Origin: Candidatus Buchananbacteria bacterium
GTDB taxonomy: Bacteria; Patescibacteriota; Patescibacteriia; 2-01-FULL-39-33
Direction of reading: 5' to 3'
NCBI GenBank assembly: GCA_041666505.1
Contig: JBAYGU010000001.1
Span: forward strand, 477-64,476
DNA: 64,000 nucleotides
This document shows, in pieces, positions 1 to 63,308 of the stretch. The translations under genes were made by a program, and so were the position numbers. Numbering within the stretch: the first letter of the stretch is position 1; each line of letters starts with the position of its first letter. The notes below the pieces were generated by a model. That model worked only from the letters and a program-made list of their open reading frames with translations. It did no database searches and was not told the origin of the DNA.

Positions 1-276
1 TACATCAACGCTTTCCTGGCGAGCGTCATGGACGAGACTCTTCCCCAACCGAGGGACCAACATAACCACATCGACCGGTTTCTTGATCTTGCAGGCATCG
101 ATTGTGTCGACGGCCGCACGCGCAACCAACTTGGGCGCACACATCACCGTTCGACCGAGGCCGCCGAAGAAATTGGACACACCGTCGGCCACCTTGCCTT
201 GATCAGCGTAAGCGGTAAACGGCATGGCGACGGCGAACAACAGGGCGAATACGAGGACAAGACTGAACTTCTTCAT
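1..276 (-). CDS. Partial (window-truncated) small secreted protein with N-terminal signal peptide (MKKFSLVLVFALLFAVAMPFTA...)
   Basis: Minus-strand ORF starts at ATG 276-274 and is preceded by a strong SD (AAAGGAGACT). It stays open to the window edge and has a classic signal peptide. GC is about 58%, well above the window average. It is preferred over the plus-strand shadow ORF 28..282, which lacks an RBS. Confidence 0.4.
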   Translation of the reverse strand, partial: MKKFSLVLVFALLFAVAMPFTAYADQGKVADGVSNFFGGLGRTVMCAPKLVARAAVDTIDACKIKKPVDVVMLVPRLGKSLVHDARQESVDV

Positions 277-4753: not shown

Positions 4754-4796
4754 AATCCTCTCGTCTGCCAGGCGGCTGATCAAGAGGATTTTTTTA
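4754..4796 (+). terminator. Rho-independent terminator (AATCCTCT...AGAGGATT + T-run)
   Basis: 8-bp perfect stem followed by TTTTTTT. The right arm overlaps the last codons of the convergent acyltransferase gene. Confidence 0.5.
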
Positions 4797-10837: not shown

Positions 10838-11221
10838 TTATTTATTTTTTAATATTTCTTTGACCTTCTGTGCCAGGGTTGCCGGCGTGTAATCGGATTT
10901 TATGAGGTAGCCGTTGACGCCTAATTTCTGCGCCTTTTCCTGATCCTTTTTCTGCGTCAAATTGCTCCAGATATAGACCTTGATTTTCTTCAAATCTTTA
11001 TCCTTCCTTATCTTAACAAATAATTCAAAACCGTCAATCTCCGGCATCATGACATCCAATAAAACCAGATCCGGCGTTTCTTGCTTCAAGACATCAATGG
11101 CCTTGGCGCTATCATTGATAACCACAGTCTCAATGCCGTCCATAACCAGCCGCATACTGTAAATTTCAGCCAAATCTTTTTCGTCCTCGATCAAGGCGAT
11201 TTTACATTTATTTTCAGACAT
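10838..11221 (-). CDS. Single-domain response regulator (CheY-like receiver)
   Basis: Receiver-domain pattern with phospho-acceptor context LLDVMMPEIDG. Confidence 0.75.
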   Translation of the reverse strand: MSENKCKIALIEDEKDLAEIYSMRLVMDGIETVVINDSAKAIDVLKQETPDLVLLDVMMPEIDGFELFVKIRKDKDLKKIKVYIWSNLTQKKDQEKAQKLGVNGYLIKSDYTPATLAQKVKEILKNK

Positions 11222-18769: not shown

Positions 18770-18782
18770 AAATAATATTTTA

Positions 18783-19367
18783 TTAATTTTCGTTGAATAT
18801 TTCCCAAAGCTCCGTCGGCAGATTGCCTTTCTTCTTTAATCGATCGAATTTATCTCCCAATATCATCCTTAAATCACTTAATGCCTCATCTGCGCTGTCT
18901 GCTGTATGGATGACATTCTTCTGCGTCAGAACGACTGATAATTCGTCCTGCCGCGGATGAGCGCCATTCTGCCACAGCTTTAGATCCTCATCGGATACTT
19001 TTGAATCCCGCTGTAATTTCTGCCTGATAACACCGTCACCCGTTTCTTTTTTTTTCAGACTGGACAATACCCGTTGGGCTTCCAAGCCGTCGCCTCCGAC
19101 CAGCAAAACAATCACCTCATGACTAGACAGATATTTTCTCATTGCCGGATAAAAATGCTGATTGATTGAATCAGCATAAATATAATCGACCGCTTGCGGC
19201 GATAATTTTACTTTATCTTCATAAACGATCATTAAGCCGTTTTCTTTTAAAATAGATTCTATCGCCGGCAAATCATCTATATATTCCGGCTTTATGAAAG
19301 CAAATGCTATTTCCTTTTTGGGCATTAAGTCTTTGATTTCTTGCCCTGGCGGATATTCTCTTATCAT
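18783..19367 (-). CDS. Nucleoside-diphosphate-kinase-like protein (divergent, N-terminal extension)
   Basis: AFAFIKPEY (compare NDK FIMIKPDG) and NVIHTADS (compare NDK NIIHGSDS, catalytic His). Confidence 0.5.
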   Translation of the reverse strand: MIREYPPGQEIKDLMPKKEIAFAFIKPEYIDDLPAIESILKENGLMIVYEDKVKLSPQAVDYIYADSINQHFYPAMRKYLSSHEVIVLLVGGDGLEAQRVLSSLKKKETGDGVIRQKLQRDSKVSDEDLKLWQNGAHPRQDELSVVLTQKNVIHTADSADEALSDLRMILGDKFDRLKKKGNLPTELWEIFNEN

Positions 19368-21123: not shown

Positions 21124-22752
21124 TTAACTGATCTTTTTTGCTTGCTTCCTATCCGCCATCGGCAATGAAAAACAGAACTTGCTGCCTTTGTTTTTACCGG
21201 GCGATTCCACCCAGATGCGGCCGCCCATATTCTCTACCAGGACGCGCGCGTAATATAAGCCCAAGCCAGTCCCCTCGGTATTGACCTTGGCCGAATCCTT
21301 GCCGCGGGTGAATTTGTTGAATAATCGTTTGATGTCGTCAGCATCCATACCCATGCCGGTATCTTGAGAAGTAAAAACGACAGACGTGCCCTCTTGATGC
21401 AGGCCGACCATGATCTCGCCTTGCTTGGTGTATTTGATGGCATTATCGATTATATTGGAAACGATGTCTTTTATCTTCTGCGCGTCCGCCGCGACTTTCG
21501 GCACCTTTTCTTTACTCATGAAGGCCAGCTTCAATTTGCGCGCCTTGGCTTTCTCTTGGAAATCATTGACCATCGACTTGGCGACTTCCGTCAGATCCAC
21601 TGGCTCGATAGTGAACTCAATCCTGCCCGCCTCGATACGCGATATATTAAGTAGGCTTTCCACTAAATTAATTAATCGTTCGGTCGAGACGAATATCTTG
21701 TCGATGCTTTCCTTGACTGGTTTAGTCATCTTGCCAAAACTGCCTTCCAAAAGCATCGAAGAATAGCCTTTGATGATCGTGAGCGGCGTCCTCAGCTGAT
21801 GCGAGGAGATCGACAGGAATTCCGATTTGGATTCATCTAATCGCTTCAATTCCTTGTTGGCGCTCGCCAAATCCTTCGTGACTTTATTCAATTTTTTATT
21901 AAGCGCTTCCATTTCCTCGCGGCGATGGACTTCGTGAAGTACTGAGCGAACAAGCAACACGGCAAAGAATAAGGTAATAATAAATATGACCACCCTGAAA
22001 TAAACAGAAATTTGCGATGTTTGAAATATTTGTAAAAAAGTTATAACTATTAAAAATACAGAGAATAATTCCGTTGCAATTACTTTAATATTCATCAAGT
22101 GGTGCTTGATTATCGCATAAGCCACTGCTGCGACGTAAAAAGTTACCAATATATTAGTAATGGGCGGAATGGGTATTTTATACCACAAAAAATAATTAGT
22201 AGACCCGCCGATAAATCCGATTGTCATTCCGACTAATACATAAATAATTTGAATTTTTATGATTCCCTCTGATTGAATATATTTCTTATAAAGTAGAGAA
22301 CAAGAATAGACTACGTAAAAAAACCAAATAATCAAAAAAGGGGCGAATGCTGGACCGGCCATTGGCCAAAACTTAAAAGTTAAAATCGGTTCGACGCCAA
22401 TGACAAATAGGGGGGTAAAATCAAGTATTAAAAAGATGAGGGAAATGATGAACGTCAGAATCAAAAATTTTCTTCTTTTTGGAAGCAAACCGACAAAAGA
22501 ATAAATAAAATATAAATAAGTAAATGGAATAAAAATAGCTGGAGCCATCAATAGACGGCACCAAAATAAGGCTGAGATCGGATCACTGGCCAATTGCCAA
22601 TAATAATATCCGATGCTCCAAAAAGCCACAGTAAAAGCAAAAAGTGAAAAGGAGGCATTAACTTTGTCTTCTTTATTGCTAAAAAAAACAAAAGTACCCA
22701 GAAATATACTGCTAAAAAAATTAATTATTGCAACGATGGCGTAAATATTCAT
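21124..22752 (-). CDS. Membrane sensor histidine kinase
   Basis: About 7 N-terminal TM helices, an H-box (SHQLRTPL) and HATPase_c G-boxes (GTGLGL). Confidence 0.8.
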   Translation of the reverse strand: MNIYAIVAIINFFSSIFLGTFVFFSNKEDKVNASFSLFAFTVAFWSIGYYYWQLASDPISALFWCRLLMAPAIFIPFTYLYFIYSFVGLLPKRRKFLILTFIISLIFLILDFTPLFVIGVEPILTFKFWPMAGPAFAPFLIIWFFYVVYSCSLLYKKYIQSEGIIKIQIIYVLVGMTIGFIGGSTNYFLWYKIPIPPITNILVTFYVAAVAYAIIKHHLMNIKVIATELFSVFLIVITFLQIFQTSQISVYFRVVIFIITLFFAVLLVRSVLHEVHRREEMEALNKKLNKVTKDLASANKELKRLDESKSEFLSISSHQLRTPLTIIKGYSSMLLEGSFGKMTKPVKESIDKIFVSTERLINLVESLLNISRIEAGRIEFTIEPVDLTEVAKSMVNDFQEKAKARKLKLAFMSKEKVPKVAADAQKIKDIVSNIIDNAIKYTKQGEIMVGLHQEGTSVVFTSQDTGMGMDADDIKRLFNKFTRGKDSAKVNTEGTGLGLYYARVLVENMGGRIWVESPGKNKGSKFCFSLPMADRKQAKKIS

Positions 22753-22823: not shown

Positions 22824-23783
22824 TTATTTCTCGGCAATAAGAATGCCATGAATGCGCAACGGTTCATAGATTATTCGATAATCCTTAAATCCTGCTTTTT
22901 CGGCTATTTCCACTAGATCGCTAGGATCGCGATAGATCATGGGCCAATTGATGACCCAATGAAGGAAGTGTTGTTCCGGATTCGGAGCGATATTGCATGT
23001 CAGATATACACCATCGGGCTCTAGTGATTCCCGGATCTTTTCCGACAATCGTATCGCCTTTCCTTGTTCGATGTAATCAAGTAGCCCCAACATCTCAATG
23101 ATCTGCGGTTTGAAGTCGACCGCTACCATGGCCACTGCCGCAACACTAATCTGTTTTATTTCGATTTGACTACATACACCATAGCACTTAGCCAAATTTC
23201 TGGCATATTCCAGCGCATCCTTATCGATATCGACAAGAATCGCCTTAACGATTACACCCCTGTGTTTAAACTCGGCAATAATTTCAATCACTGCTTGAGC
23301 CGAACCGCAAGCCAATGAAATCAATCTGACTTCACCATGACCACTAAATCTCAATATTGCCCGTCGCACCTCTTGCCGCACCAACTTGTAACGATTACGA
23401 ACAGCCTGAGCGTTCATCATGCCAATCCAGAAATTATCTATAATCTTTCTCCAGCCGAAACTGAAATTGTGATTGTAGATAATGTCCAAGGCTTTCCACG
23501 AAGCCGCACCATCCTTGATCTGACGATTACCAGGCCCCAAGCCATCAAACCACATAGTGTTGGTCTGTGGCCTATCGATTCCAAATTTCTTATACACCAA
23601 TTTCTTAGCGATCACGTACAGTGTGAGCAACCAAGAAATTGGCAGGGTGAGTATGTAAAGCCAGCGGCGATGCTCATAGGAATCCAGCTTAATCGGTTGA
23701 ACAAATGAGGCTTCAATATTACCCGACTCTGACATTTCCGGAGCCGTAGCTATTTCCACCCCAGAGAGAGTATATTTATTCAT
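22824..23783 (-). CDS. Class I SAM-dependent methyltransferase with N-terminal TM helix
   Basis: Motif I-like LISLACGSAQAV plus an acidic loop VDIDKDAL. Confidence 0.55.
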   Translation of the reverse strand: MNKYTLSGVEIATAPEMSESGNIEASFVQPIKLDSYEHRRWLYILTLPISWLLTLYVIAKKLVYKKFGIDRPQTNTMWFDGLGPGNRQIKDGAASWKALDIIYNHNFSFGWRKIIDNFWIGMMNAQAVRNRYKLVRQEVRRAILRFSGHGEVRLISLACGSAQAVIEIIAEFKHRGVIVKAILVDIDKDALEYARNLAKCYGVCSQIEIKQISVAAVAMVAVDFKPQIIEMLGLLDYIEQGKAIRLSEKIRESLEPDGVYLTCNIAPNPEQHFLHWVINWPMIYRDPSDLVEIAEKAGFKDYRIIYEPLRIHGILIAEK

Positions 23784-23805: not shown

Positions 23806-24990
23806 CTAGAACTTCACAGTTCCGCTAATTGCACCTGTCCAGACGTCAGCAGAAATTTCCCGGCCGTCAGCCTTATTGCTGCCCCAGCCGCGGGAAAGTC
23901 CCACTGTCAGGTCCCACGACTTCGCGATTTGATAATTGAGCCGACCGGCGACAAACACTCCGTCCGTATCCGGCGTCATGAAGTCCGCCGTCTGGTCAGG
24001 AACTGCTGCGGACATATAGCCCGTGCCGCCGCCGATCGTCAGGCGATCATTCACTTTGTAACTAGCGCCGACTCGGGCCGCCCAATTATCCGCCCAACCG
24101 GTCTTGACCGGCTTGGTGAACGTGAGCTTGTCGAATTTGATATCGACCGACTCCAACGAACTCTTGGAGTAGCCGTACCAAGTCCAATCAGCCACTAAGA
24201 GCAATCGATCAGTCGCCTTCCAAGCTCCGGAAACTTCGAGTTCGTCCGGAAATTGGAAATCAGCTTTGATCTCATCCCGCAAATGGAACGGACTCAGGAT
24301 TTCCGTGCGGCCATTCAAACGCGCCTTAATGCTCGAAGTATAATTCATTCCGAACGCCCAATTCTCATTCGGCTGATAAAACACGCCAACGGCCGCGCCG
24401 ATTCCGGCTCCGATCGCTTTCGTGTCCGTCTCGATCGGCAGGTTATGCCGATTGATGTCGAATGGCCCGTGCCACGTCAGCATAGTGTCGGCAATTATCA
24501 AGCCGAGTCCGATTGACCACTGATCGTTTAATCTCTGAGTAACGTACGGTTCAATGTACGTCCCGGATATAAGAGTCCGAGAATCTATCCTGCCGAAGCT
24601 TTTTTCGAAGCTCGCACCCATGCCGAATTCCGTCCGGATCTTCAAGCCGGTGACGGTATCGCCATCGACCCTTTGAGCCCAGCACAGATACGGCAATGTA
24701 TGCGCCACGTTCTTCGACTCAATAGTTCGACCAAATCGATCCGTAATACGGAATTTCGGCACCATGGTTTCGAAACCGAATTCCAATTGGCTGCCATCAA
24801 TCTGGATCATACTGCCCAGATTCTCCGGCAGCCATGGTCCGTCCGGATTCGAGCCATTGCCGACACCTGTCGGCCCAGTTACAGCCAAGCGATCCAATCC
24901 TCCGCCATAGGCCAAAGGATTAAACATTACGGCCATAATGGCCAAAAGTACCAACAAAATTAACTTTACTGAATTGTAATGAACTTGCAT
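23806..24990 (-). CDS. FadL/OmpP1/TodX-like outer-membrane beta-barrel protein
   Basis: Signal peptide, amphipathic beta-strand periodicity and a C-terminal ...ISGTVKF ending in Phe. GC of about 56% far exceeds neighbouring genes. Confidence 0.55.
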   Translation of the reverse strand: MQVHYNSVKLILLVLLAIMAVMFNPLAYGGGLDRLAVTGPTGVGNGSNPDGPWLPENLGSMIQIDGSQLEFGFETMVPKFRITDRFGRTIESKNVAHTLPYLCWAQRVDGDTVTGLKIRTEFGMGASFEKSFGRIDSRTLISGTYIEPYVTQRLNDQWSIGLGLIIADTMLTWHGPFDINRHNLPIETDTKAIGAGIGAAVGVFYQPNENWAFGMNYTSSIKARLNGRTEILSPFHLRDEIKADFQFPDELEVSGAWKATDRLLLVADWTWYGYSKSSLESVDIKFDKLTFTKPVKTGWADNWAARVGASYKVNDRLTIGGGTGYMSAAVPDQTADFMTPDTDGVFVAGRLNYQIAKSWDLTVGLSRGWGSNKADGREISADVWTGAISGTVKF

Positions 24991-25137
24991 TTCTTTTCTC
25001 CTATTTCTCTGCTATTTTAGCAGTTTTTGACAGCTACCAACAGTTATCCACAATATTCTGACTAACATAAAATTATAGCAAATAATAACACTTTTGTCAA
25101 TGAATGATTAAATATTTACTAATTTTACGCAAAAAAA

Positions 25138-25164
25138 CCGCCGAATCGCTTCGGCGGCCATGAA
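25138..25164 (-). terminator. Rho-independent terminator (CCGCCGAA-tcgc-TTCGGCGG + T-run)
   Basis: Perfect 8-bp stem. An identical copy lies at 30073-30099. Confidence 0.6.
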
Positions 25165-25166: not shown

Positions 25167-25862
25167 TTATTTCTCGCTTTCCAGTCGAGCTTTTAATAAA
25201 AATATCGTATCGGTTCGCAATTTCGCTCGAGCCCAATCTTTTTGAGAAGCCGTCAACATCTCTCCCAGGCCATCGAGAATATGGCGATTGTCCATCTTTT
25301 CCAACATCTTAATGCATTTAGCTACAACTTCCTCAAAAGTCAGCTTAGCACGATTTTCCACTAATTTCTTATTGATCGGCCACATGTTTTTGGCAAAAAA
25401 ATAAACGTCATAGACATCGCGACTCGTCTTGCCTATCCTCTCATACATCGCCATGAGTTTATTGGCGAACATATCTTCCTTAACCATAACCGGCATAGAG
25501 ATGCCCAGCAACGTTTTCACTTCGTATTTCGATCCGAAATTCCGTCGATTGACTTCGATTTTTATATTCTGAGACTTCAAGTCATGCGCGATAATAACGA
25601 TCAGATTAAATCTCTTAATCTTGGAATCAATGATCTTACCGTAGCCTGCGGCTATCTTTTGGATTTTTTCAAACACTTCCTTTTCCTTATCAACAACCAA
25701 AAGATCAAGATCGATATCGACGGAGTTGCGATCCAGGCCGTAAAACATCAAAGCCGCCGTTCCGCCTTTAAAACCCAAATACGGGGACAGCGAAGTGTCA
25801 GAAAAAATATCTTTCAATATCTGCAATAGAATATTCTTATGTTTGGGATAGTCTAATGTCAT
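25167..25862 (-). CDS. abiEii: AbiEii/AbiGii-family nucleotidyltransferase toxin (type IV TA)
   Basis: Hallmark LGFKGGTAALMFYGLDRNSVDIDLDL. Confidence 0.7.
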   Translation of the reverse strand: MTLDYPKHKNILLQILKDIFSDTSLSPYLGFKGGTAALMFYGLDRNSVDIDLDLLVVDKEKEVFEKIQKIAAGYGKIIDSKIKRFNLIVIIAHDLKSQNIKIEVNRRNFGSKYEVKTLLGISMPVMVKEDMFANKLMAMYERIGKTSRDVYDVYFFAKNMWPINKKLVENRAKLTFEEVVAKCIKMLEKMDNRHILDGLGEMLTASQKDWARAKLRTDTIFLLKARLESEK

Positions 25863-26476
25863 ACGGTTTGAATGTTATCCAGTTTATCGTTTTTATAATA
25901 ATTGAAATATTTTTCAACTTTCTTAGCCATTCTTTGATTGCGGTAAATCGGCAAAATTTCAAAAACTTTTTTCCAGTCCAAAACGCTCAGATTGTCGAAA
26001 TGATAATCCTTGCTGATATATATCCGATCCAAAAATGCCCGCTCTTTTGTCGCGACAGCCACGCCATTTACATGCTCGATCCCCGCCGTATTGCTCAGAA
26101 CAAAATCCTTCATCCTGATAAACGATATTTTTTGCCCGTCCGCCTCAATCTCCCTCGTAACATAGGAAGCAACAAAAATATTTCCGTAATACTGGAAATT
26201 CACTCCGGTCCGAGTCAAGACTGTTTCAAAACTGACATAAGAGGGAGTATAGATCCGCGTAGCCAATTCAAAACGATCATAATTCTTATCCTTGGCATAA
26301 ATGCCGCGATGGACCCTGATTAATTTTCCCCTTTTTACATAATTGCTCAATCTAACCCTGATTTTAGCCTCTCCTATTTCACCCCACAGCAAAGAAATGT
26401 CTTTTGTGGAAAAGACAGTTTTTGGCGATCTGAGCAACATATCGATATATTGGCCTTTTGTGAGTTTATTAACCAT
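25859..26476 (-). CDS. abiEi: AbiEi-family antitoxin/transcriptional regulator
   Basis: RGKLIRVHRGIYA signature of the AbiEi N-terminal domain. It overlaps the toxin by 4 nt. Start is taken at MVNKL (26476) rather than the longer track ORF ending at 26545. Confidence 0.65.
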   Translation of the reverse strand: MVNKLTKGQYIDMLLRSPKTVFSTKDISLLWGEIGEAKIRVRLSNYVKRGKLIRVHRGIYAKDKNYDRFELATRIYTPSYVSFETVLTRTGVNFQYYGNIFVASYVTREIEADGQKISFIRMKDFVLSNTAGIEHVNGVAVATKERAFLDRIYISKDYHFDNLSVLDWKKVFEILPIYRNQRMAKKVEKYFNYYKNDKLDNIQTV

Positions 26477-26517
26477 ATACTTACTAGATGTTAGTTTAAA
26501 ACTTACTAACAGTACAA

Positions 26518-26545
26518 TTATAGCACATATATAAAATATATGCAA
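26518..26545 (-). promoter_or_regulatory. Putative sigma70-type promoter for abiEi (TTGCAT-16/17-TATAAT)
   Basis: On the minus strand, TTGCAT lies at 26545-26540 and TATAAT at 26523-26518, about 45 nt upstream of ATG 26476. The recurring TTTTTGTCTAAAATTAGCTAA motif lies immediately upstream. Confidence 0.35.
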
Positions 26546-26591
26546 GTATTTAATAATTAGCTAATTTTAGACAAAAAGATACCAGAATTAA

Positions 26592-28046
26592 CTAATGCCT
26601 CATTTTCGATGTAAATAATCTGGTCGGTTCAAAATCAGTCTGAGCAAAATTAATGCCCAATTTCATCAGCCACACAAAATATATTACTCCCGGATCATCT
26701 CTAAGTTGTTTCGCTATGAATTTGTCCACCAGATTATCAACCGCTTTCACGCTCAATTTATCAGAAAAGCTCGGCAGTTCTTTGGTCAAAAAATTTATGA
26801 TATTTGTATTGAACTCACCCTTATCCAAACGATCCAATTGAGAGGCAGCAAAATCATAATGCGGATTCAATTCCAAAGCCATATGTAATAATTCCTCTCC
26901 GGCGGGATTGCCTGCAGCCAACATAGACGATCCTTTATTGGCAAATAAGCGATAAATTTCCCGATCGGTTGTTTTTGATGATAATAATTCCTGGAAACCC
27001 TTATCATATGATTCCATTGCCAGCCCTGGCTTTCCCTGTTTAGTAGCTTTCATCGCTTTCTCCGCATAATCCATCCAGCCTTCAGAACTGAATATCCCGC
27101 TAATATAACGAGGGGTTGATTGATCGCGATCCGGCCTGACTTTCCCCTTCATCTCATGCGGGCATTTACCACTAAGTGATTTATGCGGGGAATAATTGCT
27201 AAGATCGCAAGACGCTTTCACCAATAAATCCATGTCATCTTTTTTCAGGTCATGATGAGCCAAACCCATTAAGATCGAAATAGGGAAAGTCGCTAAATCA
27301 TCATTAGCGGTTTTATTAATCCATTTCTTGACTTGACTCACAGAAACAAAAGGCGAGATGCCGCATACATTAAAGGCTGCCTCCGCTTGCTTTTCTGCCT
27401 TTTGTTCGTTCATCGTCAGATCAATTTTGTCGCTTGCATTTTCCGCCTCATCGGCTTGCTGTCTGCCAGGCTTATAAAGAATTTCATAAACCACCTGGGG
27501 CGTTATAATATCACCAGATTTCCTAAAATATTTTTTTGCCTGCTCGGTCATCATTGTATCCAGCATTTGGCATGTGCCACTGGCGAATTCATAACGTTCT
27601 CCGATCTTAGCTACTCGACAAATAATCGTCTGACCCGGAAGAAGCAATCTGGCTCCCGCATATTCCCGCACCGCATACTCCTTATCCTGTTGCAGGCTTT
27701 CAACTTCTATCCGCCCGGGTTTGACTGAGGTGACAGAGAAAAAACCATATTCATTATCTAACATATCCCTTAAATCCGATAATTCATTATCAGTTAACCT
27801 AAGAGGATTATTTTTAACAAAATCAGACAGCGGCGTCTTGCCATTAGACAGCTTGAAATCAAATACCAGCCATTCCATAAAAAGCATATTAACCGGATCC
27901 ATGTCATCATCGGCAATCAAATCGCCATCTACGACATCACCAATGGAGCGGCCAAAAAATTCCAAACTTGCTCTTTTAATATCCGCATTACGCCCGAGAT
28001 CGTAAAGATAATGATCTAGGACGTCAGAAATTGCATTTTTTCTCAT
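26592..28046 (-). CDS. Hypothetical 484-aa protein with C-terminal TPR-like repeat, flanked by AbiE modules
   Basis: No recognisable catalytic motif; positioned between two type IV TA pairs. Confidence 0.4.
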   Translation of the reverse strand: MRKNAISDVLDHYLYDLGRNADIKRASLEFFGRSIGDVVDGDLIADDDMDPVNMLFMEWLVFDFKLSNGKTPLSDFVKNNPLRLTDNELSDLRDMLDNEYGFFSVTSVKPGRIEVESLQQDKEYAVREYAGARLLLPGQTIICRVAKIGERYEFASGTCQMLDTMMTEQAKKYFRKSGDIITPQVVYEILYKPGRQQADEAENASDKIDLTMNEQKAEKQAEAAFNVCGISPFVSVSQVKKWINKTANDDLATFPISILMGLAHHDLKKDDMDLLVKASCDLSNYSPHKSLSGKCPHEMKGKVRPDRDQSTPRYISGIFSSEGWMDYAEKAMKATKQGKPGLAMESYDKGFQELLSSKTTDREIYRLFANKGSSMLAAGNPAGEELLHMALELNPHYDFAASQLDRLDKGEFNTNIINFLTKELPSFSDKLSVKAVDNLVDKFIAKQLRDDPGVIYFVWLMKLGINFAQTDFEPTRLFTSKMRH

Positions 28047-28082
28047 ATTTTTCGTTATGATTATTCTTGTATGATTACAGGC

Positions 28083-29372
28083 CTACTTCAACAGATCATC
28101 CAGCTCGCAAGACAGCAAGGCGGATTTATTTAGCAAGATCTGCTCATTGGGATTCAGATTATCCGCAGTCATCCGAATAAGCTTGGTGGTGATGCTGTCG
28201 CCTAACATAATCCTGCCGGTTTTCTTGAAATATTTCTCTGTCATTTGAAAAAAGTGGGTCGCATACTGTTTGAGAACTTCCTGCGGAGCGAGCCGACTAC
28301 TTATACCGTTATTCGTAAATTCTGTAATCTTCATTAAATTATCATCTATCATATTATTCATTTTACCATCTGTCGCAATAATCCAATCTTCATCAATCGC
28401 ATATTTAACAAGAACAATTTTCCCATCATCTGTTTCATACAAAAATTTAAACAAAAAAATATCCTTAAACATATCCTCAAAAATTACCAACTTTTGAAGA
28501 ATTTTAATATCTCTAATTTTATATTCATCCAAAAGACGCAGATAGCTCTCTCGCCAATTCTTTAACCAATTGGCAATGAAAGCCTGATCCAAGAAAAGCG
28601 GGGTCAAATCATGTTTGAGATTGGCATCCGTCTTCGGACTGTTTAAAATTTTTATCGTAACCTTGTCGAATAATTCTTTCGGATTCTTAATATCGATACC
28701 TTTGGCGATGAGATAATCGAAATCAGGCACGATTTTTTTGCCCATATACCACAGCAGGTCATAAATATCGCGCCCTTTTTCTTCATAAATTTCTTTCCCT
28801 GTCCCGCGAGAGCCGCGCAGAAAAATTGCGGCTAATTTGCTTGCCATGAGCGCACCCATATTATATGTCCAGATGACAAATGACAACTGTCCGCGATTTA
28901 TCGGCTGGCGGTCAATTACGGTTTTAGAAGCGGCAAAATGATTCAAATCAATTTTTACGTGGATCTGATCCGAAGGCCAGCCAAGGCTAAGTTCCTTGCC
29001 GACATGGAACTTCAAGATCAATCCTCTGCCGGCAGTTATTTTTAACGTTAAGAAACCGGCTCCGGCTCCATATGTATTTGCAAAATAATCTTCAATCTCC
29101 CTTTTCAATTCGCCCAAAAATTCCTCTGTCACCTCATGAGAAACCTCAAAATCCAAATCAACCGACATACGATCCAGGCCATGGATTATGCGCAGCGCGG
29201 AACCGCCATACATGACCCAATCGCCGTATTCCTGATGATGATAAATAAAATTCAGGACATAAAACTGCAGCTCTTCTTCAAGGGCGTTAAGGCGCGTCTC
29301 GGCATCGATACCGCCATAAGCTGACAGGCTCTCGATTTTCCTTTTCAAAATTGCGATTATCTGTTCGCTCAT
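28083..29372 (-). CDS. AbiEii-family nucleotidyltransferase (second, 429 aa)
   Basis: VMYGGSALRIIHGLDRMSVDLDFEV. Confidence 0.65.
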   Translation of the reverse strand: MSEQIIAILKRKIESLSAYGGIDAETRLNALEEELQFYVLNFIYHHQEYGDWVMYGGSALRIIHGLDRMSVDLDFEVSHEVTEEFLGELKREIEDYFANTYGAGAGFLTLKITAGRGLILKFHVGKELSLGWPSDQIHVKIDLNHFAASKTVIDRQPINRGQLSFVIWTYNMGALMASKLAAIFLRGSRGTGKEIYEEKGRDIYDLLWYMGKKIVPDFDYLIAKGIDIKNPKELFDKVTIKILNSPKTDANLKHDLTPLFLDQAFIANWLKNWRESYLRLLDEYKIRDIKILQKLVIFEDMFKDIFLFKFLYETDDGKIVLVKYAIDEDWIIATDGKMNNMIDDNLMKITEFTNNGISSRLAPQEVLKQYATHFFQMTEKYFKKTGRIMLGDSITTKLIRMTADNLNPNEQILLNKSALLSCELDDLLK

Positions 29373-30004
29373 ATGAGTATATTTTTAACAAATGAATAAA
29401 ATTTTTCCTGCTCTTCGATATCCATCTCGTCAAAATCAATGCGCAATTCCTCGATCATTGGATCAATATCTTCCAGCTTAATGCCGCGGAACTGGCGAGT
29501 TCTGAAATACAGAAGATCAAATAATGCTTTCGCCGGAGAAGCGATAAAAAAATCAAACCCCCCTGCATCAGATCCAGGCCTTCCCGTTACTAAGTGAAAA
29601 TCAGAAAAGAGCTCTTTTTTAATCGACTGATAGGCGAAATTGCCCGCCTTGGCCTGATAATCCTTAGTTACTTTAATGGTTACTGATGTGATAGAATTGA
29701 TCGATTCGGTCGCTAAGCCATAATACTGCAAGGCTGCCCAAGAACTGATATAAGACGGCACACGGATAATATTAGCAAGATAAAATGAATATGAACCGTC
29801 ATGCTTATACTTATCATAAAAAGCAGAGGTTACATATAAACCGTTTTTTAGCTGAAAAATCTCATTATATTTCAAAAATCGGCTGATATATGTGTCAACC
29901 GTGGAATCCTTAAGCCCCAACTGCTTACCGAGCTGATATACGGCGTTTTTATTGAAGTGGGGTAATGTTTTTAACTGCTCAAGCAGGTTTTTCTTGCTTT
30001 TCAT
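29369..30004 (-). CDS. AbiEi-family antitoxin (second)
   Basis: LKNGLYVT and an AbiEi-like C-terminal domain. It overlaps the downstream NTase gene by 4 nt. Confidence 0.6.
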   Translation of the reverse strand: MKSKKNLLEQLKTLPHFNKNAVYQLGKQLGLKDSTVDTYISRFLKYNEIFQLKNGLYVTSAFYDKYKHDGSYSFYLANIIRVPSYISSWAALQYYGLATESINSITSVTIKVTKDYQAKAGNFAYQSIKKELFSDFHLVTGRPGSDAGGFDFFIASPAKALFDLLYFRTRQFRGIKLEDIDPMIEELRIDFDEMDIEEQEKFYSFVKNILI

Positions 30005-30119: not shown

Positions 30120-30704
30120 CTAATCTTCCATTCTCCAATCAGAATGGCCCTCGAAAAGTTTCTGAACGTCATCGATTGCATTAACGATATCGCCGATATT
30201 AGCCATGGCACCCATGCCGATATCGCCGCAAGCCAGCATTTTTTCAACCGGAGGCACAATGACCAAATGCGGATATCGACGCCTCAATCGCTCTAAATGC
30301 TCTTTTGTGAGCCGGTTTTTCCACATGTCAGTGTTCATCGCCGGAGCGATGACAATCGGACGAAACCGAGTCCACGCATAAAAAATGCAGGTTAAGTAAT
30401 TATCGGCAATGCCCAGAGCGAGCTTAGTTAAAGTATTTGCCGTCAGCGGTGCGATGACAAACACTTCGCCCCAATGCTCCATATCGATGTGGCCGACTGG
30501 CCCATTCTTAATAAATCCGCCTGCTGGCCATTCGTCTTTATCTTTGTATATGCCAGCATGCGGCTCGGGAATGAAATACAACGCCGGCGTAGTGGCAACT
30601 ACTCTGACTTCATGGCCGGCGGCCACCATTGCGGCGGCCATTTTGTGAGTCAATGTTGCAGCAGCCACGCTGCCCGTAACTCCAAGAATTATTCGCTTTC
30701 CCAT
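30120..30704 (-). CDS. coaC: Flavoprotein, phosphopantothenoylcysteine decarboxylase-like
   Basis: GKRIILGVTGSVAAA flavoprotein fold. It lies directly after a standalone coaB. Confidence 0.65.
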   Translation of the reverse strand: MGKRIILGVTGSVAAATLTHKMAAAMVAAGHEVRVVATTPALYFIPEPHAGIYKDKDEWPAGGFIKNGPVGHIDMEHWGEVFVIAPLTANTLTKLALGIADNYLTCIFYAWTRFRPIVIAPAMNTDMWKNRLTKEHLERLRRRYPHLVIVPPVEKMLACGDIGMGAMANIGDIVNAIDDVQKLFEGHSDWRMED

Positions 30705-31369
30705 TGCATTGTCTCCCTGATTTTTTCTTCGATTCCCTGGGGCAATCCCCCGCGATCAACTCGAAGTGTTTCTTCTTTAGTCACGATAAACGCATATTCC
30801 TTTGATGTCTCCAAGCAATTGGCGACGATCATGTCGGCATCACTATCGAGCATGCTTTTCTTGGCAATTTCCAAAAGCCGGTCATCGGAAATTCCGACTT
30901 GCAGCTTGAATTTAACCAAGCATTCTTCGTAGCCCCAAGGCTCACGAATTAAATCGACGATCTTCGGCGTCTTGATTAAGCGCAGATATAACACTTCGAA
31001 ATCAGAGGAAATTTTGCCGCTGTTATCCAATTCGATAAGAGCACCGGATTCATTCTGGAAGCAGACTCCGTCGACCTTATAGTCGCTGACAGCCGACGAA
31101 TGAATTACGATATCAAATCGATTGTTGCAAATCTCCTGTTCCATCAATTGGAGCAATTCATCAAAAGTCTGATATCTAATAATGCGATTCAGATTATTAA
31201 CATCAGGAATCAAACCGGGATTGGAAGTCAACAGTGTAACCTCATATCCATTATCGGCAAAATACATCGCGATATTTGTTCCCGTCCGGCCTTTGAAAAT
31301 ATTCGTGATCGCCCGGACCTGATCGATGGGCGTCAAAGTCGCTCCCGCTGTAACAAGTACTTTCTTCAT
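30689..31369 (-). CDS. coaB: Phosphopantothenate--cysteine ligase domain protein
   Basis: KKVLVTAGATLTPIDQVRAITNIFKG DFP-domain N-terminus. Confidence 0.7.
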   Translation of the reverse strand: MKKVLVTAGATLTPIDQVRAITNIFKGRTGTNIAMYFADNGYEVTLLTSNPGLIPDVNNLNRIIRYQTFDELLQLMEQEICNNRFDIVIHSSAVSDYKVDGVCFQNESGALIELDNSGKISSDFEVLYLRLIKTPKIVDLIREPWGYEECLVKFKLQVGISDDRLLEIAKKSMLDSDADMIVANCLETSKEYAFIVTKEETLRVDRGGLPQGIEEKIRETMQWESE

Positions 31370-31393
31370 CTTGCTATCCTCCTGAACTTAGTC

Positions 31394-32263
31394 TCACCAA
31401 GAAATCTTCAAAAGCCTCTGAGCATTGCCGCCCAATATTTTATTCTCATCATCCGGCGAAAGATTCAACGACGCGACGATTTCCAAAGTGTCGCGATAAG
31501 ACTGGATTGGAAAATCCGTCGCGAACATGATACGATCGATGCCGTTGGGCAGTTCGATGAATTGCTTGATCTGACTAGTAATGAATTTCCGATACTCCGG
31601 CGTGTCTTCGGAACTGCCCGAGACGAACTGCCCGGAAATATCAGTCATGACATTAGGGCAATCGATCATCACCTGGCGCAAAATATCGAAATACGGGTTG
31701 GCCAGATGGCAAGCAATGAAGTTGACTTCCGGATAACGAAGAGCCAGAAGCCGCAGACGTTCCGGATTTGCCAAGTGCGCCCTTTCATCCAAGGGGCAAA
31801 GAGGGCGGCCGCATCGGCCTTGGCCGATTACTCTAACATCCTTGGGACAGCAATGATACAATTCGCCCAAATGCATCGCAATCGGCAGATCATATTCCTG
31901 AGCCAGCCGGCAAATTCGCCCGACTGCCCGACAATCCAATTCGAATTTCTGATAACCCGGGTACAGCTTGAAGCCGCTTAAACTCCCAGCATCGGCCATA
32001 ACTTCTAATTCAAAAGTCGATGGTTTATCGGCGCTCAAATCCAGACTGCCGAACATACGAAACAGGCTGTCGCCCATTATCCGCTCGTGCAAATCGAGAT
32101 TAGAAAGCCCTGTGCCCTTGAGCGGAAAATACGTCGCCATCAAGACGATTACCTTGATATAGTACATCTTGGCGTATTCGCGCAGATCATCCAGATCGGC
32201 ATCTGCCGTGTGCAAACCCTTCATTTGATGCCTAGAAGTATGCGCGTGCATATCGATTATCAT
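31394..32263 (-). CDS. Amidohydrolase-2 family TIM-barrel metal-dependent hydrolase
   Basis: N-terminal MIIDMHAHT with downstream His/Asp ligand positions. Confidence 0.6.
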   Translation of the reverse strand: MIIDMHAHTSRHQMKGLHTADADLDDLREYAKMYYIKVIVLMATYFPLKGTGLSNLDLHERIMGDSLFRMFGSLDLSADKPSTFELEVMADAGSLSGFKLYPGYQKFELDCRAVGRICRLAQEYDLPIAMHLGELYHCCPKDVRVIGQGRCGRPLCPLDERAHLANPERLRLLALRYPEVNFIACHLANPYFDILRQVMIDCPNVMTDISGQFVSGSSEDTPEYRKFITSQIKQFIELPNGIDRIMFATDFPIQSYRDTLEIVASLNLSPDDENKILGGNAQRLLKISW

Positions 32264-51776: not shown

Positions 51777-51807
51777 AGTTTTTTTTATTTTAGTTATTAT
51801 ATTTTTA

Positions 51808-52248: not shown

Positions 52249-52307
52249 AACGTAATTCTTATTCCAAGGGGCTCGATAAATCGAAGCCCCTATGGAATAA
52301 AATATTA

Positions 52308-63306: not shown

Positions 63307-63308
63307 CA

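What the first reader, a model, noticed from the sequence alone, without database searches (positions are those of the whole stretch)
23806..24990. High-GC FadL/OmpP1-like outer-membrane beta-barrel gene in a low-GC genome
The ORF encodes a signal peptide, alternating amphipathic strands and a C-terminal ...GTVKF, the hallmark of Gram-negative OM beta-barrels. Its GC of about 56% contrasts with about 41% in neighbouring genes. The partial secreted-protein gene at 1-276 has similarly high GC (~58%). Both are probably recent horizontal acquisitions from a higher-GC diderm. If the host is a monoderm (CPR-like), an OM barrel would be functionless or repurposed. If it is a diderm, this is one of its few recognisable OMPs.
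Basis: partly seen in the sequence, partly recalled or inferred. Interest (0 to 1): 0.55.

Follow-up and report, generated by a model that had tools for sequence, protein, structure and literature searches.

The report
Conserved FadL barrel family in CPR bacteria
The gene is a real FadL-type outer-membrane channel, but it is a long-resident, selected gene of a Candidatus Buchananbacteria (CPR) genome and not a recent import, and it belongs to a CPR-specific subfamily that usually sits beside a 7TM sensor kinase, which is odd because CPR bacteria are thought to have no outer membrane.

Summary
ORF 23806-24990 (-) is real. It encodes 394 aa with a signal peptide, an N-terminal plug, a 14-strand barrel and a terminal Phe. 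Pfam Toluene_X scores 106.7 bits, and the AF2 model (pLDDT 83) matches E. coli FadL at TM 0.80.

GC is 52.6% (not ~56%) against 43.5% for the window. About 60% of the excess comes from amino-acid composition (GC2). GC3 is only 4th of 55 ORFs, and codon usage is not foreign.

Recent HGT is not supported:
- the gene keeps its position in a relative (CoaBC-FadL-X-HK...ThrRS-ArgRS-RR-IleRS);
- it is 63% identical there, like its neighbours (56-66%);
- synonymous sites are saturated and dN/dS is <=0.08-0.37.

The window is CPR: its RNase Y hits only Patescibacteria.

An exhaustive profile search plus an NJ tree place the gene in one clade of about 60 clusters. That clade holds every CPR-labelled sequence (Buchananbacteria, Falkowbacteria, Vogelbacteria) and excludes the Desulfobacterota FadLs (100/100 bootstraps). 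In 11 of 14 loci the gene adjoins a methyltransferase or reductase plus a 7TM(-GAF) histidine kinase.

It is most likely a hydrophobic-solute channel coupled to that module. Which membrane holds it is unresolved, because no BamA survey was possible.

The parts
23806..24990 (-). FadL/OmpP1/TodX-family beta-barrel gene (394 aa plus stop)
   Evidence: ORF. Pfam PF03349 106.7 bits. AF2 pLDDT 83.3. Foldseek TM 0.80 to E. coli FadL.
24904..24990 (-). Signal peptide, aa 1-29 (MQVHYNSVK-LILLVLLAIMAVMF-NPLAYG | GGL)
   Evidence: Read from the sequence. It aligns to the E. coli FadL signal peptide, with cleavage site AWS|AGF opposite AYG|GGL. No signal-peptide predictor was available. NCBI's 376-aa gene model (P0001) starts at Met19 and would lose it.
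24793..24903 (-). N-terminal plug (hatch) region, aa 30-66. It is highly conserved in the family (G30 R34 G39 G46 G51 N57 L58 Q63 invariant in 18 sequences).
   Evidence: Family alignment. It aligns to the EcFadL plug, with N57 opposite N33 of the NPA motif. pLDDT is low for aa 30-50 and 87-90 for aa 51-70.
23809..24792 (-). Barrel, aa 67-394. It carries the S3-kink motif T120-E-F-G123-M-G125-A-S-F128 and the terminal F394.
   Evidence: DSSP strands. G123 aligns with the EcFadL kink glycine G103. F394 is invariant in 18 sequences and is F in 50 and W in 3 of the 60 clade members.
25072..25100 (-). Sigma-70-type promoter TTGACA-17-TATAAT with a TG extension (12/12 match)
   Evidence: Promoter scan. 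The same TTGACA-N17-TGnTATAAT lies 80-110 nt upstream of the FadL start in L001, L007, L009, L012 and L017.
24998..25002 (-). Shine-Dalgarno AGGAG, 7 nt before the ATG at 24990
   Evidence: Sequence.
25009..25023 (-). Short 5'-UTR hairpin CUGCU-AAAAU-AGCAG just upstream of the SD
   Evidence: Hairpins with different stem sequences occupy the same place in L001, L007, L011, L012 and L017. Energies are mostly not better than shuffles, so the significance is uncertain.
25136..25159 (-). Intrinsic terminator (10-bp stem, 6 GC, then a T run) that closes the upstream AbiEii gene and insulates the FadL transcription unit
22824..23783 (-). Methyltransf_20-type class I SAM methyltransferase with an N-terminal hydrophobic helix, 22 bp downstream of the FadL stop
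   Evidence: Pfam PF12147. AF2 pLDDT 79, helix at aa 41-66. Nearest solved folds are small-molecule O-/C-methyltransferases at TM <=0.6. It is a recurrent FadL neighbour.
21124..22752 (-). HisKA_7TM sensor histidine kinase (7TM + HisKA + HATPase_c)
   Evidence: Pfam. It lies next to the FadL gene in 11 of 14 distinct loci.
10838..11221 (-). Single-domain response regulator. It is a candidate partner of the kinase, distal here but adjacent to the kinase in L018, L021 and L023.
   Evidence: It is syntenic and 78.7% identical to L001 11648-12031, which carries PF00072. Adjacency elsewhere. The partnership is an inference.
25167..30004 (-). ~4.8-kb insertion relative to the syntenic relative L001: AbiEii 25167-25862, AbiEi 25859-26545, an unknown 484-aa gene 26592-28046, AbiEii-like 28083-29372, and 29369-30004
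   Evidence: Pfam. In L001, CoaC is followed directly by FadL.
30120..32263 (-). Synteny anchors: CoaC (Flavoprotein), CoaB (DFP) and Amidohydro_2
   Evidence: Pfam. Same order in L001. Identities 47-64%.
1..276 (-). 5' part of a 178-aa signal-peptide protein, Ala/Val/Gly-rich, 56% GC, no family match

Best explanation
SHOWN.
- The ORF encodes a Sec-type precursor of a FadL/OmpP1/TodX-family 14-strand beta-barrel. It has an N-terminal plug of about 37 residues, the conserved S3-kink glycine and a C-terminal aromatic residue.
- It is a native gene of a Candidatus Buchananbacteria (CPR/Patescibacteria) chromosome, inherited together with its neighbours. It has its own strong promoter and is under purifying selection.
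- It belongs to a monophyletic CPR-specific FadL subfamily of about 55-60 clusters at 50% identity, labelled Buchananbacteria, Falkowbacteria, Vogelbacteria and 'Patescibacteria group'. Compared with ordinary FadLs these proteins are shorter (median 392 vs 419 aa). They lack most of extracellular loops L3/L4. They have replaced residues that ordinary FadLs conserve (Ec D348 to M/L/Q; Ec R366 to G).
- The gene usually lies next to a variable enzyme gene (a membrane-anchored SAM methyltransferase, a CER1-like_C/SDR reductase, or a NAD_binding_4 reductase) and a 7TM(-GAF) histidine kinase, sometimes with a response regulator.
- Its high GC comes mainly from barrel-type amino-acid composition, plus a GC3 that other native genes share.

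INFERRED.
- The protein works as FadL channels do. A hydrophobic molecule (a scavenged fatty acid or lipid-like nutrient, or a hydrophobic signal) enters from outside, displaces the plug's N-terminus and leaves sideways through the S3-kink opening into a lipid layer.
- It then reaches the membrane-anchored modifying enzyme and/or is sensed by the 7TM kinase.
- Because the E. coli carboxylate-site and gating residues are not kept, the substrate is probably not handled exactly as E. coli handles long-chain fatty acids.

NOT ESTABLISHED. Which lipid layer holds the barrel: an unrecognised outer layer of these CPR cells, the host's outer membrane, or the cell's only membrane.
For: Identity.

Motifs against EcFadL: cleavage site, N33=N57, G103=G123, G212=G202, terminal F. 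The defining features are taken from bioRxiv 10.1101/2020.05.11.088534.

CPR host: NCBI label of P0001. RNase Y from the window hits only Patescibacteria, Buchananbacteria, Parcubacteria or Falkowbacteria among named proteins. The window also carries T4SS pilins, RNase Y, YmdB and DUF5674.

Vertical inheritance: synteny with L001 and equal divergence with neighbours.

Selection: pS 0.64-0.82, pN 0.21-0.41. There are 42 invariant columns in 18 sequences.

Expression signals.

Clade: 50 clusters at E<1e-30 in 1.84 billion representatives. Labels. NJ split of all 15 CPR-anchored sequences from all 6 labelled non-CPR sequences in 100/100 bootstraps.

Cassette. The MT20-HK7TM-RR core also exists without FadL.

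GC.

Lipid dependence of CPR: PMC12455944. A precedent for FadLs in a fatty-acid auxotroph with variant NPA motifs is Treponema pallidum, PMC8407342.
Against: - FadL channels are needed to cross an LPS outer leaflet. CPR are reported to lack an outer membrane, TonB-ExbBD and PilQ (PMC6744442, PMC7137472, PMC12102498, PMC10160955). So the canonical site of action may not exist.
- No other OMP-like ORF was found among 218 ORFs of >=150 aa in about 250 kb of CPR DNA. No BAM, Lpt or Tol gene was seen in the window.
- The plug's N-terminal half is modelled with low confidence, and I could not inspect the coordinates.
- NPA is N-L-G in this protein, and D348 and R366 are lost. The gating mechanism may therefore differ.
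- The strand-face hydrophobicity contrast is only z=2.0 above shuffles.
- Functional coupling to the kinase and enzyme rests on gene neighbourhood alone.
- Only 15 of the 60 clade members carry a CPR label or a CPR context.
Confidence: 0.6

Rival explanations
1. One reading: a recent horizontal acquisition from a higher-GC diderm, functionless or decaying in a monoderm host.
For: It is the highest-GC ORF in the window. A toxin-antitoxin insertion lies directly upstream. GC3 of 0.613 is above the window mean of 0.49.
Against: - The codon-usage likelihood is ordinary, and the residual GC excess ranks 7th of 55.
- The GC2 effect is family-wide.
- The gene is syntenic and has diverged as much as its neighbours.
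- Purifying selection, a perfect promoter and SD, and a deep CPR-only clade.
- The TA block is an insertion next to the gene and does not carry it.
Confidence: 0.03
2. These particular CPR lineages (ABY1: Buchananbacteria and Falkowbacteria; some Paceibacteria) do have a second, outer lipid-containing layer, with some barrel-insertion machinery. The protein is then an ordinary outer-membrane channel there.
For: - The signal peptide, the plug, the kink glycine and especially the C-terminal aromatic residue (53/60) are retained as well as in diderm FadLs (71/95).
- Long-term selection.
- FadL is only useful where a barrier to hydrophobic molecules exists.
- A PEP-CTERM motif protein, to my knowledge typical of diderms, sits 2 kb from the FadL gene in L017 (marginal score).
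- PMC8871954 notes that most CPR lack reliable envelope data.
Against: - Cryo-TEM of Parcubacteria shows no outer membrane, and OM-linked families are missing across CPR.
- There are no other OMP candidates in about 250 kb of flanking DNA.
- The T4SS in CPR is of the monoderm type.
- The family is patchy: about a tenth as many clusters as the linked MT20 family at similar divergence.
Confidence: 0.17
3. The barrel is exported and used in the host's outer membrane, or at the epibiont-host contact, to move lipids or hydrophobic molecules between host and CPR cell.
For: CPR are largely episymbionts that recycle others' lipids. The window encodes a T4SS pilin array for cell contact. This reading would explain an OMP in a cell without an OM, and the shortened surface loops.
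Against: I know of no precedent for delivering a BAM-type barrel into another cell's OM from outside. The lateral opening would release substrate into the host membrane, not toward the epibiont. There is no linked secretion or targeting gene. The conserved neighbours are a cytoplasmic-membrane kinase and an enzyme, which suggests a cell-autonomous pathway.
Confidence: 0.1
4. On origin only: the subfamily is a vertical relic of the diderm ancestor of CPR, and not an ancient single acquisition from a diderm (for example Desulfobacterota-like) followed by spread within CPR.
For: The clade is monophyletic, spans at least two CPR classes and has deep internal divergence. Basal members keep the canonical NPAG plug motif.
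Against: The distribution is very patchy: about 50 clusters at E<1e-30 in 1.84 billion representatives, and far fewer than MT20. No other OM relics were seen. The nearest labelled outgroups, at about 116-117 bits, are Desulfovibrio and Thermodesulfobacteriota, which I recall as common anaerobic-sediment and groundwater lineages. The tree is NJ only and unrooted with respect to species.
Confidence: 0.15
5. Assembly or binning artefact: the gene comes from a co-assembled Gram-negative organism.
For: Two related contigs carry 'uncultured Gammaproteobacteria' labels.
Against: - The gene lies in the middle of a 64-kb contig between CPR housekeeping genes.
- There are 14 independent loci from different samples and assemblers with the same CPR-type neighbours.
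- The two 'Gammaproteobacteria' contigs are ~36% GC in L012, where it was measured, and carry the CPR cassette (L012 also the CPR-enriched VanW/PG_binding family).
Confidence: 0.01

Closest known systems
E. coli FadL (long-chain fatty acid outer-membrane channel; PDB 1T16/1T1L)
   Same: Same Pfam family. Full-length fold match at TM 0.80. Shared features: signal peptide with a Gly at mature position 2, plug Asn (N33=N57), S3-kink glycine (G103=G123), G212, and terminal Phe.
   Different: - Only 16% identity. NCBIfam FadL equivalog scores 43.5 bits against a cutoff of 585.
- NPA is N-L-G, and F3 is Leu.
- D348 is Met and R366 is Gly (Gly in 59 of 60 clade members).
- R157 and K317 are not kept.
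- Loops Ec 175-195 and 246-257 are absent, and the mature protein is about 55 residues shorter.
- The host is reported to lack an outer membrane.
TodX / TbuX / CymD (monoaromatic hydrocarbon FadL channels)
   Same: Same family and fold (TM 0.65-0.72). Same lateral-diffusion architecture with the conserved kink glycine. UniRef names a Falkowbacteria member 'Aromatic hydrocarbon degradation protein'.
   Different: No hydrocarbon-degradation operon is nearby. The neighbours are a methyltransferase or reductase and a sensor kinase.
Treponema pallidum FadL orthologues (TP0548, TP0856, TP0858, TP0859, TP0865)
   Same: These are FadL-family barrels in a host-dependent fatty-acid auxotroph. They lack the E. 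coli high-affinity site and include NPA variants (NAA) (PMC8407342). This is the closest analogy in lifestyle.
   Different: T. pallidum has a demonstrated outer membrane and BamA. It has five paralogues, some with C-terminal extensions. The CPR loci examined here have a single copy each.
Desulfovibrio / Thermodesulfobacteriota OmpP1/FadL transporters (e.g. WP_269891591.1)
   Same: They are the nearest labelled non-CPR relatives of the CPR profile, at about 116-117 bits.
   Different: They fall outside the CPR clade in 100/100 NJ bootstraps. They are longer (about 410-430 aa) and come from diderm hosts.

Membership tests
FadL/OmpP1/TodX family (Pfam PF03349 Toluene_X) | Sequence match above the curated family threshold | tested here: met
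   106.7 bits against a cutoff of 29.7, E 1.2e-30, profile positions 45-386 of 421. The family profile hits PDB FadL, TbuX, TodX and CymD at E 1e-14 to 1e-19.
FadL/OmpP1/TodX family (Pfam PF03349 Toluene_X) | 14-stranded beta-barrel fold | tested here: met
   AF2 model pLDDT 83.3, pTM 0.80. Foldseek TMq 0.80 over 422-427 columns to E. coli FadL. The DSSP strands can be grouped into 14 barrel strands; that grouping is my reading.
FadL/OmpP1/TodX family (Pfam PF03349 Toluene_X) | N-terminal ~40-residue plug (hatch) occluding the lumen | tested here: inconclusive
   A 37-residue, highly conserved segment lies between the signal peptide and strand 1 and aligns to the EcFadL plug. pLDDT is only 38-72 for aa 21-50. 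I could not inspect the coordinates to confirm that it sits inside the barrel.
FadL/OmpP1/TodX family (Pfam PF03349 Toluene_X) | NPA motif in the plug | tested here: not met
   The window has N57-L58-G59. In the CPR clade the Asn is kept in 53/60, and the next residue is L in 23, P in 20 and V in 11. Deeper CPR members keep YYNPAG. Accepted T. pallidum members also vary (NAA). The motif is typical of the family but is not required for membership.
FadL/OmpP1/TodX family (Pfam PF03349 Toluene_X) | Conserved glycine at the S3 kink that creates the lateral opening | tested here: met
   G123 aligns with EcFadL G103. It is invariant in the 18-member set, and Gly in 50 of 60 clade members and 89 of 94 others. 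Its importance is described. The opening itself was not measured.
FadL/OmpP1/TodX family (Pfam PF03349 Toluene_X) | Sec signal peptide and C-terminal aromatic residue (beta-signal) of an outer-membrane protein | tested here: met
   The n/h/c regions and AYG|GG align to the EcFadL cleavage site. F394 is invariant in 18 sequences. The terminal residue is F in 50 and W in 3 of 60. No dedicated predictor was run.
FadL/OmpP1/TodX family (Pfam PF03349 Toluene_X) | Location in the outer membrane of a diderm cell, inserted by BAM | not testable with these tools
The literature reports CPR without an outer membrane. No other OMP-like ORF was found in about 250 kb of CPR flanks.
E. coli FadL orthologue (long-chain fatty acid transporter sensu stricto; NCBIfam NF007988) | Equivalog-level score, with the EcFadL gating and ligand residues (F3, D348, R157, K317) retained. 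The roles of these residues are as I recall them from the EcFadL literature. F3 and D348 are also the mutant sites in the PDB entries listed. | tested here: not met
   43.5 bits against a cutoff of 585. F3 is L, D348 is M, R157 is G and K317 is V in the window, with the same trend across the clade. Alignment in the loop regions is approximate.
Recently transferred gene / genomic island | Foreign codon usage, absence from the syntenic position in relatives, divergence out of step with neighbours, carriage on a mobile element | tested here: not met
   Codon likelihood z -0.87 and residual GC rank 7 of 55. The gene is present at the same position in L001. Identity is 62.8% against 56-66% for neighbours. 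The adjacent TA block is a separate insertion.

The most novel reading that the evidence does not exclude
A subset of CPR/Patescibacteria (Buchananbacteria, Falkowbacteria, Vogelbacteria and relatives) keeps a working outer-membrane-type FadL channel. Either these cells have an as-yet-unseen outer lipid barrier with some barrel-insertion route, so not all CPR are plain monoderms, or they place a classical OMP in a membrane without BAM (their own or the host's). In both cases the barrel would be the entry port of a conserved 'FadL - lipid-modifying enzyme - 7TM sensor kinase' pathway for capturing or sensing host-derived hydrophobic molecules.
Probability: 0.25. Interest if true: 0.85.

Novelty: new variant of a known kind. 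Interest (0 to 1): 0.6.

Why it matters
CPR bacteria make up a large share of bacterial diversity and are treated as monoderms in current models of envelope evolution, in which the outer membrane was lost once on the CPR/Chloroflexi side. A FadL-type barrel has no obvious job, and no known insertion route, in a cell without an outer membrane. Yet this subfamily has been kept under selection, with its signal peptide, plug, kink and C-terminal aromatic residue, across several CPR lineages.

That gives a concrete protein to test two things: whether some CPR have an outer lipid layer, and whether classical barrels can be assembled without BAM. CPR cannot make their own fatty acids, so the conserved link to a modifying enzyme and a 7TM sensor kinase also points to a candidate route for acquiring or sensing lipids, which is a central unknown in their biology.

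If the protein turns out to be an ordinary accessory gene with a minor role, the finding still corrects the HGT reading. It also shows that a GC2-driven GC excess in barrel genes should not be mistaken for foreign origin.

Tried and rejected
It worked with a 10-sequence subset, but returned only 5 species genomes.
- Two hits labelled 'uncultured Gammaproteobacteria' looked like a possible donor lead. I rejected them: L012 is ~36% GC, L012 and L013 carry the same cassette, and L012 carries the CPR-enriched VanW/PG_binding family.
- The first homology search (word-indexed) suggested a sharp gap between the CPR set and ordinary FadLs. The exhaustive profile search showed a graded ladder instead, so I dropped the 'isolated 18-member family' picture.
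- Close strain pairs for a clean dN/dS were all identical in DNA. I fell back on Nei-Gojobori over diverged pairs, where dS is saturated, so the ratios are upper bounds.
- The Kimura protein distance failed at p>0.85. I redid the analysis with a Poisson distance. Only an NJ tree was possible, because no ML software was available.
- A 392-aa ORF after the response regulator in L022 looked FadL-sized, but it is a polytopic helical protein with no profile match.
- PDB sequence searches for the two partner enzymes gave nothing useful, and NCBIfam gave only generic SDR or methyltransferase hits. The methyltransferase model matches generic small-molecule methyltransferases only.
- The afdb50 fold library was not available.
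- The alignment-based test of the 5'-UTR hairpin failed because MAFFT could not put it in register. Single-sequence folds show the hairpin in 6 of 8 loci, but mostly with unremarkable energies.
- I could not survey BamA, LptD, Lol or Tol in the host genomes, because no tool lists a genome's proteins. A BamA query to the protein database would return only non-CPR hits.
- Literature searches for FadL with CPR, for Patescibacteria with diderm or beta-barrel, and for Buchananbacteria found no paper describing this family.
Full report
1. WHAT IS THERE

It encodes 394 aa and ends ...ISGTVKF.

It matches Pfam PF03349 (Toluene_X: OmpP1/FadL/TodX) at 106.7 bits against a cutoff of 29.7. NCBIfam gives only sub-threshold FadL-type hits: the FadL equivalog scores 43.5 bits against 585. 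A profile of its close relatives finds E. coli FadL, TbuX, TodX and CymD in the PDB at E 1e-14 to 1e-19.

An AlphaFold2 model built on 18 relatives has pLDDT 83.3 and pTM 0.80 and is nearly all beta. Foldseek places it on E. coli FadL at TMq 0.80 over the full length, followed by P. aeruginosa FadL, TodX, TbuX and CymD. The barrel call is therefore confirmed.

A crude strand-face analysis gives one hydrophobic, aromatic-rich face (mean KD 0.89 vs -0.83; 24 vs 9 aromatics). The contrast is only z=2 above shuffles.

2. THE GC OBSERVATION

The gene is 52.6% GC, not ~56%. The window is 43.5% and the flanking genes are 37-44%. It is the highest-GC ORF of 55, and only 0.16% of equal-length windows reach it.

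The excess lies chiefly at codon position 2 (0.451 against a mean of 0.346, rank 2), which reflects amino-acid content: 10.9% Gly, 7.6% Ala, 7.9% Thr, 3.3% Trp. GC3 (0.613) ranks fourth, behind LemA, a C39 peptidase and the 47958-48533 ORF, and just ahead of ThrRS.

Given its amino acids and the window's own codon usage, the expected GC is 49.3%. This accounts for about 60% of the excess. The residual of 0.033 ranks 7th of 55, and the codon-usage likelihood is ordinary (z -0.87).

In four relatives, the FadL gene's GC2 is rank 1-3 at every locus, while its GC3 equals the neighbours in three of the four. High GC is therefore a property of the protein family and does not mark foreign origin.

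The 1-276 ORF is 56.5% GC. It is the start of a 178-aa signal-peptide protein with 41% Ala+Gly+Val+Pro and no family match. The same composition argument applies, and nothing shows it to be an OMP.

3. WHOSE GENE IT IS

The identical protein is recorded by NCBI from a Candidatus Buchananbacteria MAG on a 64,584-bp contig. Independently, the window's RNase Y has named top hits only from Patescibacteria, Buchananbacteria, Parcubacteria and Falkowbacteria, at 68-95% identity.

The window also carries:
- five tandem T4SS pilin genes, RNase Y, YmdB and DUF5674;
- PFOR, PlsX and several aminoacyl-tRNA synthetases;
- no BAM, Lpt, Tol or other OMP gene.

No tRNA or Rfam family is present.

4. NOT A RECENT IMPORT

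In contig L001, which encodes a 63%-identical protein, the gene order is Amidohydro_2 - CoaB - CoaC - FadL - X - 7TM kinase - ThrRS - ... - ArgRS - response regulator - IleRS. The window has the same order.

FadL identity between the two (62.8%) matches its neighbours: kinase 63.5%, ThrRS 65.8%, Amidohydro_2 64.1%, CoaB 55.5%.

Relative to L001 the window has two differences:
- a ~4.8-kb toxin-antitoxin insertion (two AbiEii-type toxin genes, one with a recognisable AbiEi antitoxin (25859-26545), the other followed by the unassigned 29369-30004, plus an unknown 484-aa gene) between CoaC and FadL;
- a glycosyltransferase/NUDIX/NDK block between the kinase and ThrRS.

Across eight genomes synonymous sites are saturated (pS 0.64-0.82) while pN is 0.21-0.41. 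This gives dN/dS upper bounds of 0.08-0.37, and every copy is an intact ORF.

The gene has its own transcription signals: a strong terminator ends the upstream AbiEii gene, followed by a 12/12 sigma-70 promoter with a TG extension and then AGGAG 7 nt before the ATG. The same TTGACA-N17-TGnTATAAT lies 80-110 nt upstream of the start in five other relatives. These signals favour the 394-aa start over NCBI's 376-aa model, which would remove the signal peptide.

5. A CPR-SPECIFIC SUBFAMILY

The word-indexed search found 17 relatives at 36-63% identity and then a drop to ~23%. The exhaustive profile search of 1.84 billion representatives corrected this. It found 5,792 FadL-family hits, 50 of them at E<1e-30, forming a graded ladder from 640 to ~120 bits with full-length matches.

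Labels along the ladder are:
- Buchananbacteria and 'Patescibacteria group';
- Candidatus Vogelbacteria at ~260 bits;
- Candidatus Falkowbacteria at 120 bits.

The first labelled non-CPR proteins appear at ~116-117 bits. They are from Desulfovibrio and Thermodesulfobacteriota.

In an NJ tree of 155 sequences, all 15 sequences with a CPR label or CPR context fall in one 60-leaf clade that excludes E. coli FadL and the Desulfobacterota-labelled proteins. That split appears in 100/100 bootstraps, and the exact membership in 47/100.

Two contigs labelled 'uncultured Gammaproteobacteria' carry the same cassette; L012, where it was measured, is ~36% GC and also carries the CPR-enriched VanW/PG-binding family. 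I regard the labels as errors.

The family is patchy. At comparable divergence it has roughly a tenth as many clusters as the linked methyltransferase family. No paralogue occurs in 318 kb of held DNA.

6. WHAT IS CONSERVED AND WHAT HAS CHANGED

The comparison is with E. coli FadL, and the defining features are taken.

Kept:
- the signal-peptide cleavage site (AWS|AGF ~ AYG|GGL);
- Gly at mature position 2;
- the plug Asn (N33=N57; 53/60);
- the S3-kink glycine (G103=G123; 50/60);
- G212 (52/60);
- the terminal aromatic residue (F in 50 and W in 3 of 60, against 71 of 95 aromatic in the outgroup).

Changed:
- F3 is Leu or Val.
- NPA is N-L-G in the window. Across the clade the middle residue is L in 23, P in 20 and V in 11. 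Deeper members such as the Vogelbacteria and Falkowbacteria proteins keep YYNPAG.
- D348 is M/L/Q, where the outgroup has D57 and E10.
- R366 is Gly in 59/60, where the outgroup has R45 and K11.
- R157 and K317 are not kept.
- Loop segments Ec 175-195 and 246-257 are missing. Median length is 392 against 419 aa.

The PDB mutant series listed (F3G/E, N33A, P34A, delta-NPA, delta-S3-kink, G212E, D348A/R) shows which positions were treated as functionally important in EcFadL. Their detailed roles are from my own knowledge of that literature. T. pallidum FadLs likewise lack the high-affinity site and include NAA variants.

7. THE NEIGHBOURHOOD

In 11 of 14 distinct loci a HisKA_7TM histidine kinase lies within one gene of the FadL gene. 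The kinase usually has a GAF domain and sometimes an adjacent single-domain response regulator.
- With the kinase: window, L001, L005, L007, L011, L012, L013, L017, L018, L019, L023.
- Without it: L003, L009, L016.

The gene between them varies:
- a Methyltransf_20 SAM methyltransferase (window, L007, L012, L018, L019, L023, and upstream in L005);
- a CER1-like_C/SDR protein (L001, L005, L011, L013);
- a NAD_binding_4 ('male sterility', 108.7 bits) reductase (L017).

The methyltransferase and the CER1-like protein are not homologous.

In the window the methyltransferase starts 22 bp after the FadL stop and the kinase starts 71 bp further on. The methyltransferase model (pLDDT 79) has a long hydrophobic N-terminal helix. 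It resembles small-molecule O-/C-methyltransferases only generically, at TM <=0.6.

The methyltransferase-kinase-regulator core is much more widespread in CPR than FadL. It occurs without FadL on a 600-kb Paceibacterota contig. On a 331-kb Patescibacteria contig chosen only for its length, a FadL member again sits beside it, among MreB, MreC and PBP2.

8. HOW IT MOST LIKELY WORKS

Shown: a selected, expressed, Sec-exported FadL-type barrel in CPR that keeps the structural hallmarks of the lateral-diffusion mechanism.

Inferred:
- It admits a hydrophobic molecule and releases it through the kink opening into a lipid layer.
- From there the molecule reaches a membrane-anchored modifying enzyme and/or the 7TM kinase.

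CPR lack fatty-acid synthesis and are thought to recycle others' lipids. The window itself encodes PlsX, an Acyl_transf_3/GDSL pair and a lipocalin-like CrtC protein. A role in acquiring or sensing scavenged lipids is therefore the most economical reading. From my own knowledge, rhizobial FadL homologues aid the perception of long-chain AHL signals, which is a precedent for a 'channel plus sensor' pairing. I did not verify this in the library.

The unresolved step is location. FadL is needed only where an LPS-type barrier exists, and CPR are reported to lack an outer membrane. In about 250 kb of CPR flanks, no other ORF combines a signal peptide, a C-terminal aromatic residue and beta-type amphipathicity.

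The rivals are:
- a hidden outer layer in these lineages;
- use in the host's outer membrane;
- insertion into the single membrane without BAM.

I could not test for BamA in the host genomes.

9. COMPARISON, NOVELTY AND VERDICT

The protein is a member of the FadL/OmpP1/TodX family by sequence and fold. It is not an E. coli FadL orthologue. NCBI already auto-names these proteins 'outer membrane protein transport protein', so the family assignment is not new.

I found the following described in no paper of the searched library:
- the monophyletic CPR subfamily;
- its altered gating residues and trimmed loops;
- its conserved link to a 7TM kinase module;
- the conflict with the monoderm picture of CPR.

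I rate it a new variant of a known kind, with interest 0.6. The recent-HGT interpretation should be dropped.

Noticed in passing
window 25167-30004: A ~4.8-kb block lies between CoaC and the FadL promoter and is absent at the syntenic site in L001. It holds two AbiEii-type toxin genes (one paired with a recognisable AbiEi antitoxin, 25859-26545; the other followed by 29369-30004, which has no family match) and a 484-aa protein with no family match (26592-28046). It looks like an inserted defence/TA islet of 37-41% GC.
   Followed up: partly
window 16337-21103: A block of GT1 and GT2-HAD glycosyltransferases, a NUDIX gene, an NDK-like gene and an unknown 279-aa gene sits between the 7TM kinase and ThrRS. 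In L001 the kinase is followed directly by ThrRS, so this is a second indel between the two genomes.
   Followed up: no
window 51369-60045: Five tandem T4SS_pilin/VirB2-like genes (51369-54003) are followed by an SBP_bac_1 protein (54018-55508) and a 1528-aa protein with no Pfam or NCBIfam match (55459-60045). This fits the monoderm-type T4SS with VirB2-like pilins described for Patescibacteria (PMC12102498).
   Followed up: partly
window 25072-25100 and 25009-25023; L001, L007, L009, L012, L017 upstream of the FadL start: A near-perfect extended -10 promoter (TTGACA-N17-TGnTATAAT) is conserved 80-110 nt upstream of FadL genes that are only 42-63% identical. A short hairpin with different stem sequences precedes the SD in 6 of 8 loci. 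Fold energies are mostly no better than shuffles (only L012 reaches z -4.3), so the hairpin's meaning is open.
   Followed up: partly
L017 7064-8077: A 337-aa protein about 2 kb upstream of the FadL gene ends in a PEP-CTERM motif (21.9 bits, cutoff 20.7). To my knowledge PEP-CTERM/exosortase sorting is a feature of diderm bacteria, so it is odd in a CPR contig. The score is marginal.
   Followed up: no
L012 and L013 (CAYGKC010000016.1, CAZYUN010000018.1): These MAG contigs are labelled 'uncultured Gammaproteobacteria bacterium', but both carry the CPR FadL-methyltransferase/reductase-7TM kinase cassette. L012, where this was checked, is ~36% GC and also carries the CPR-enriched VanW/PG_binding_4 gene. 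The taxonomic labels look wrong.
   Followed up: partly
window 23806-24990 (start codon): NCBI's model of this gene (P0001, 376 aa) starts at Met19 and cuts off the n- and h-regions of the signal peptide. The ATG at 24990 has an AGGAG SD 7 nt upstream, and all relatives have full signal peptides.
   Followed up: yes
L021 8001-11559, L023 8001-11661, L018 11317-15005: A Methyltransf_20 - HisKA_7TM-GAF kinase - single-domain response regulator module is widespread in CPR: 368 methyltransferase clusters at E<1e-5, labelled Buchananbacteria, Magasanikbacteria and Paceibacterota. It occurs with or without the FadL gene. I know of no assigned function for it.
   Followed up: partly
window 63001-64000 (gene 63309-63761): A sharp GC drop to 31%. 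The 150-aa Polbeta/NTP_transf_2 nucleotidyltransferase gene is 28.9% GC (GC3 0.219), far below the rest of the window. It is a better candidate for foreign or mobile DNA than the FadL gene.
   Followed up: no
window 4780-6694, 34475-35482, 61385-62482: Several lipid-related genes occur in one 64-kb stretch of a lineage thought not to make fatty acids: an Acyl_transf_3 membrane acyltransferase overlapping a GDSL lipase/acylhydrolase, PlsX (acyl-ACP:phosphate acyltransferase), and a CrtC/lipocalin-like protein.
   Followed up: no
PDB hits 9hiv_F, 9hjm_F, 9n2d_B: The model also matches, at TM ~0.6, FadL-like barrels that are subunits of Bacteroidota BAM complexes. FadL-fold proteins can therefore have roles in barrel assembly itself. 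I did not explore whether this bears on the CPR proteins.
   Followed up: no
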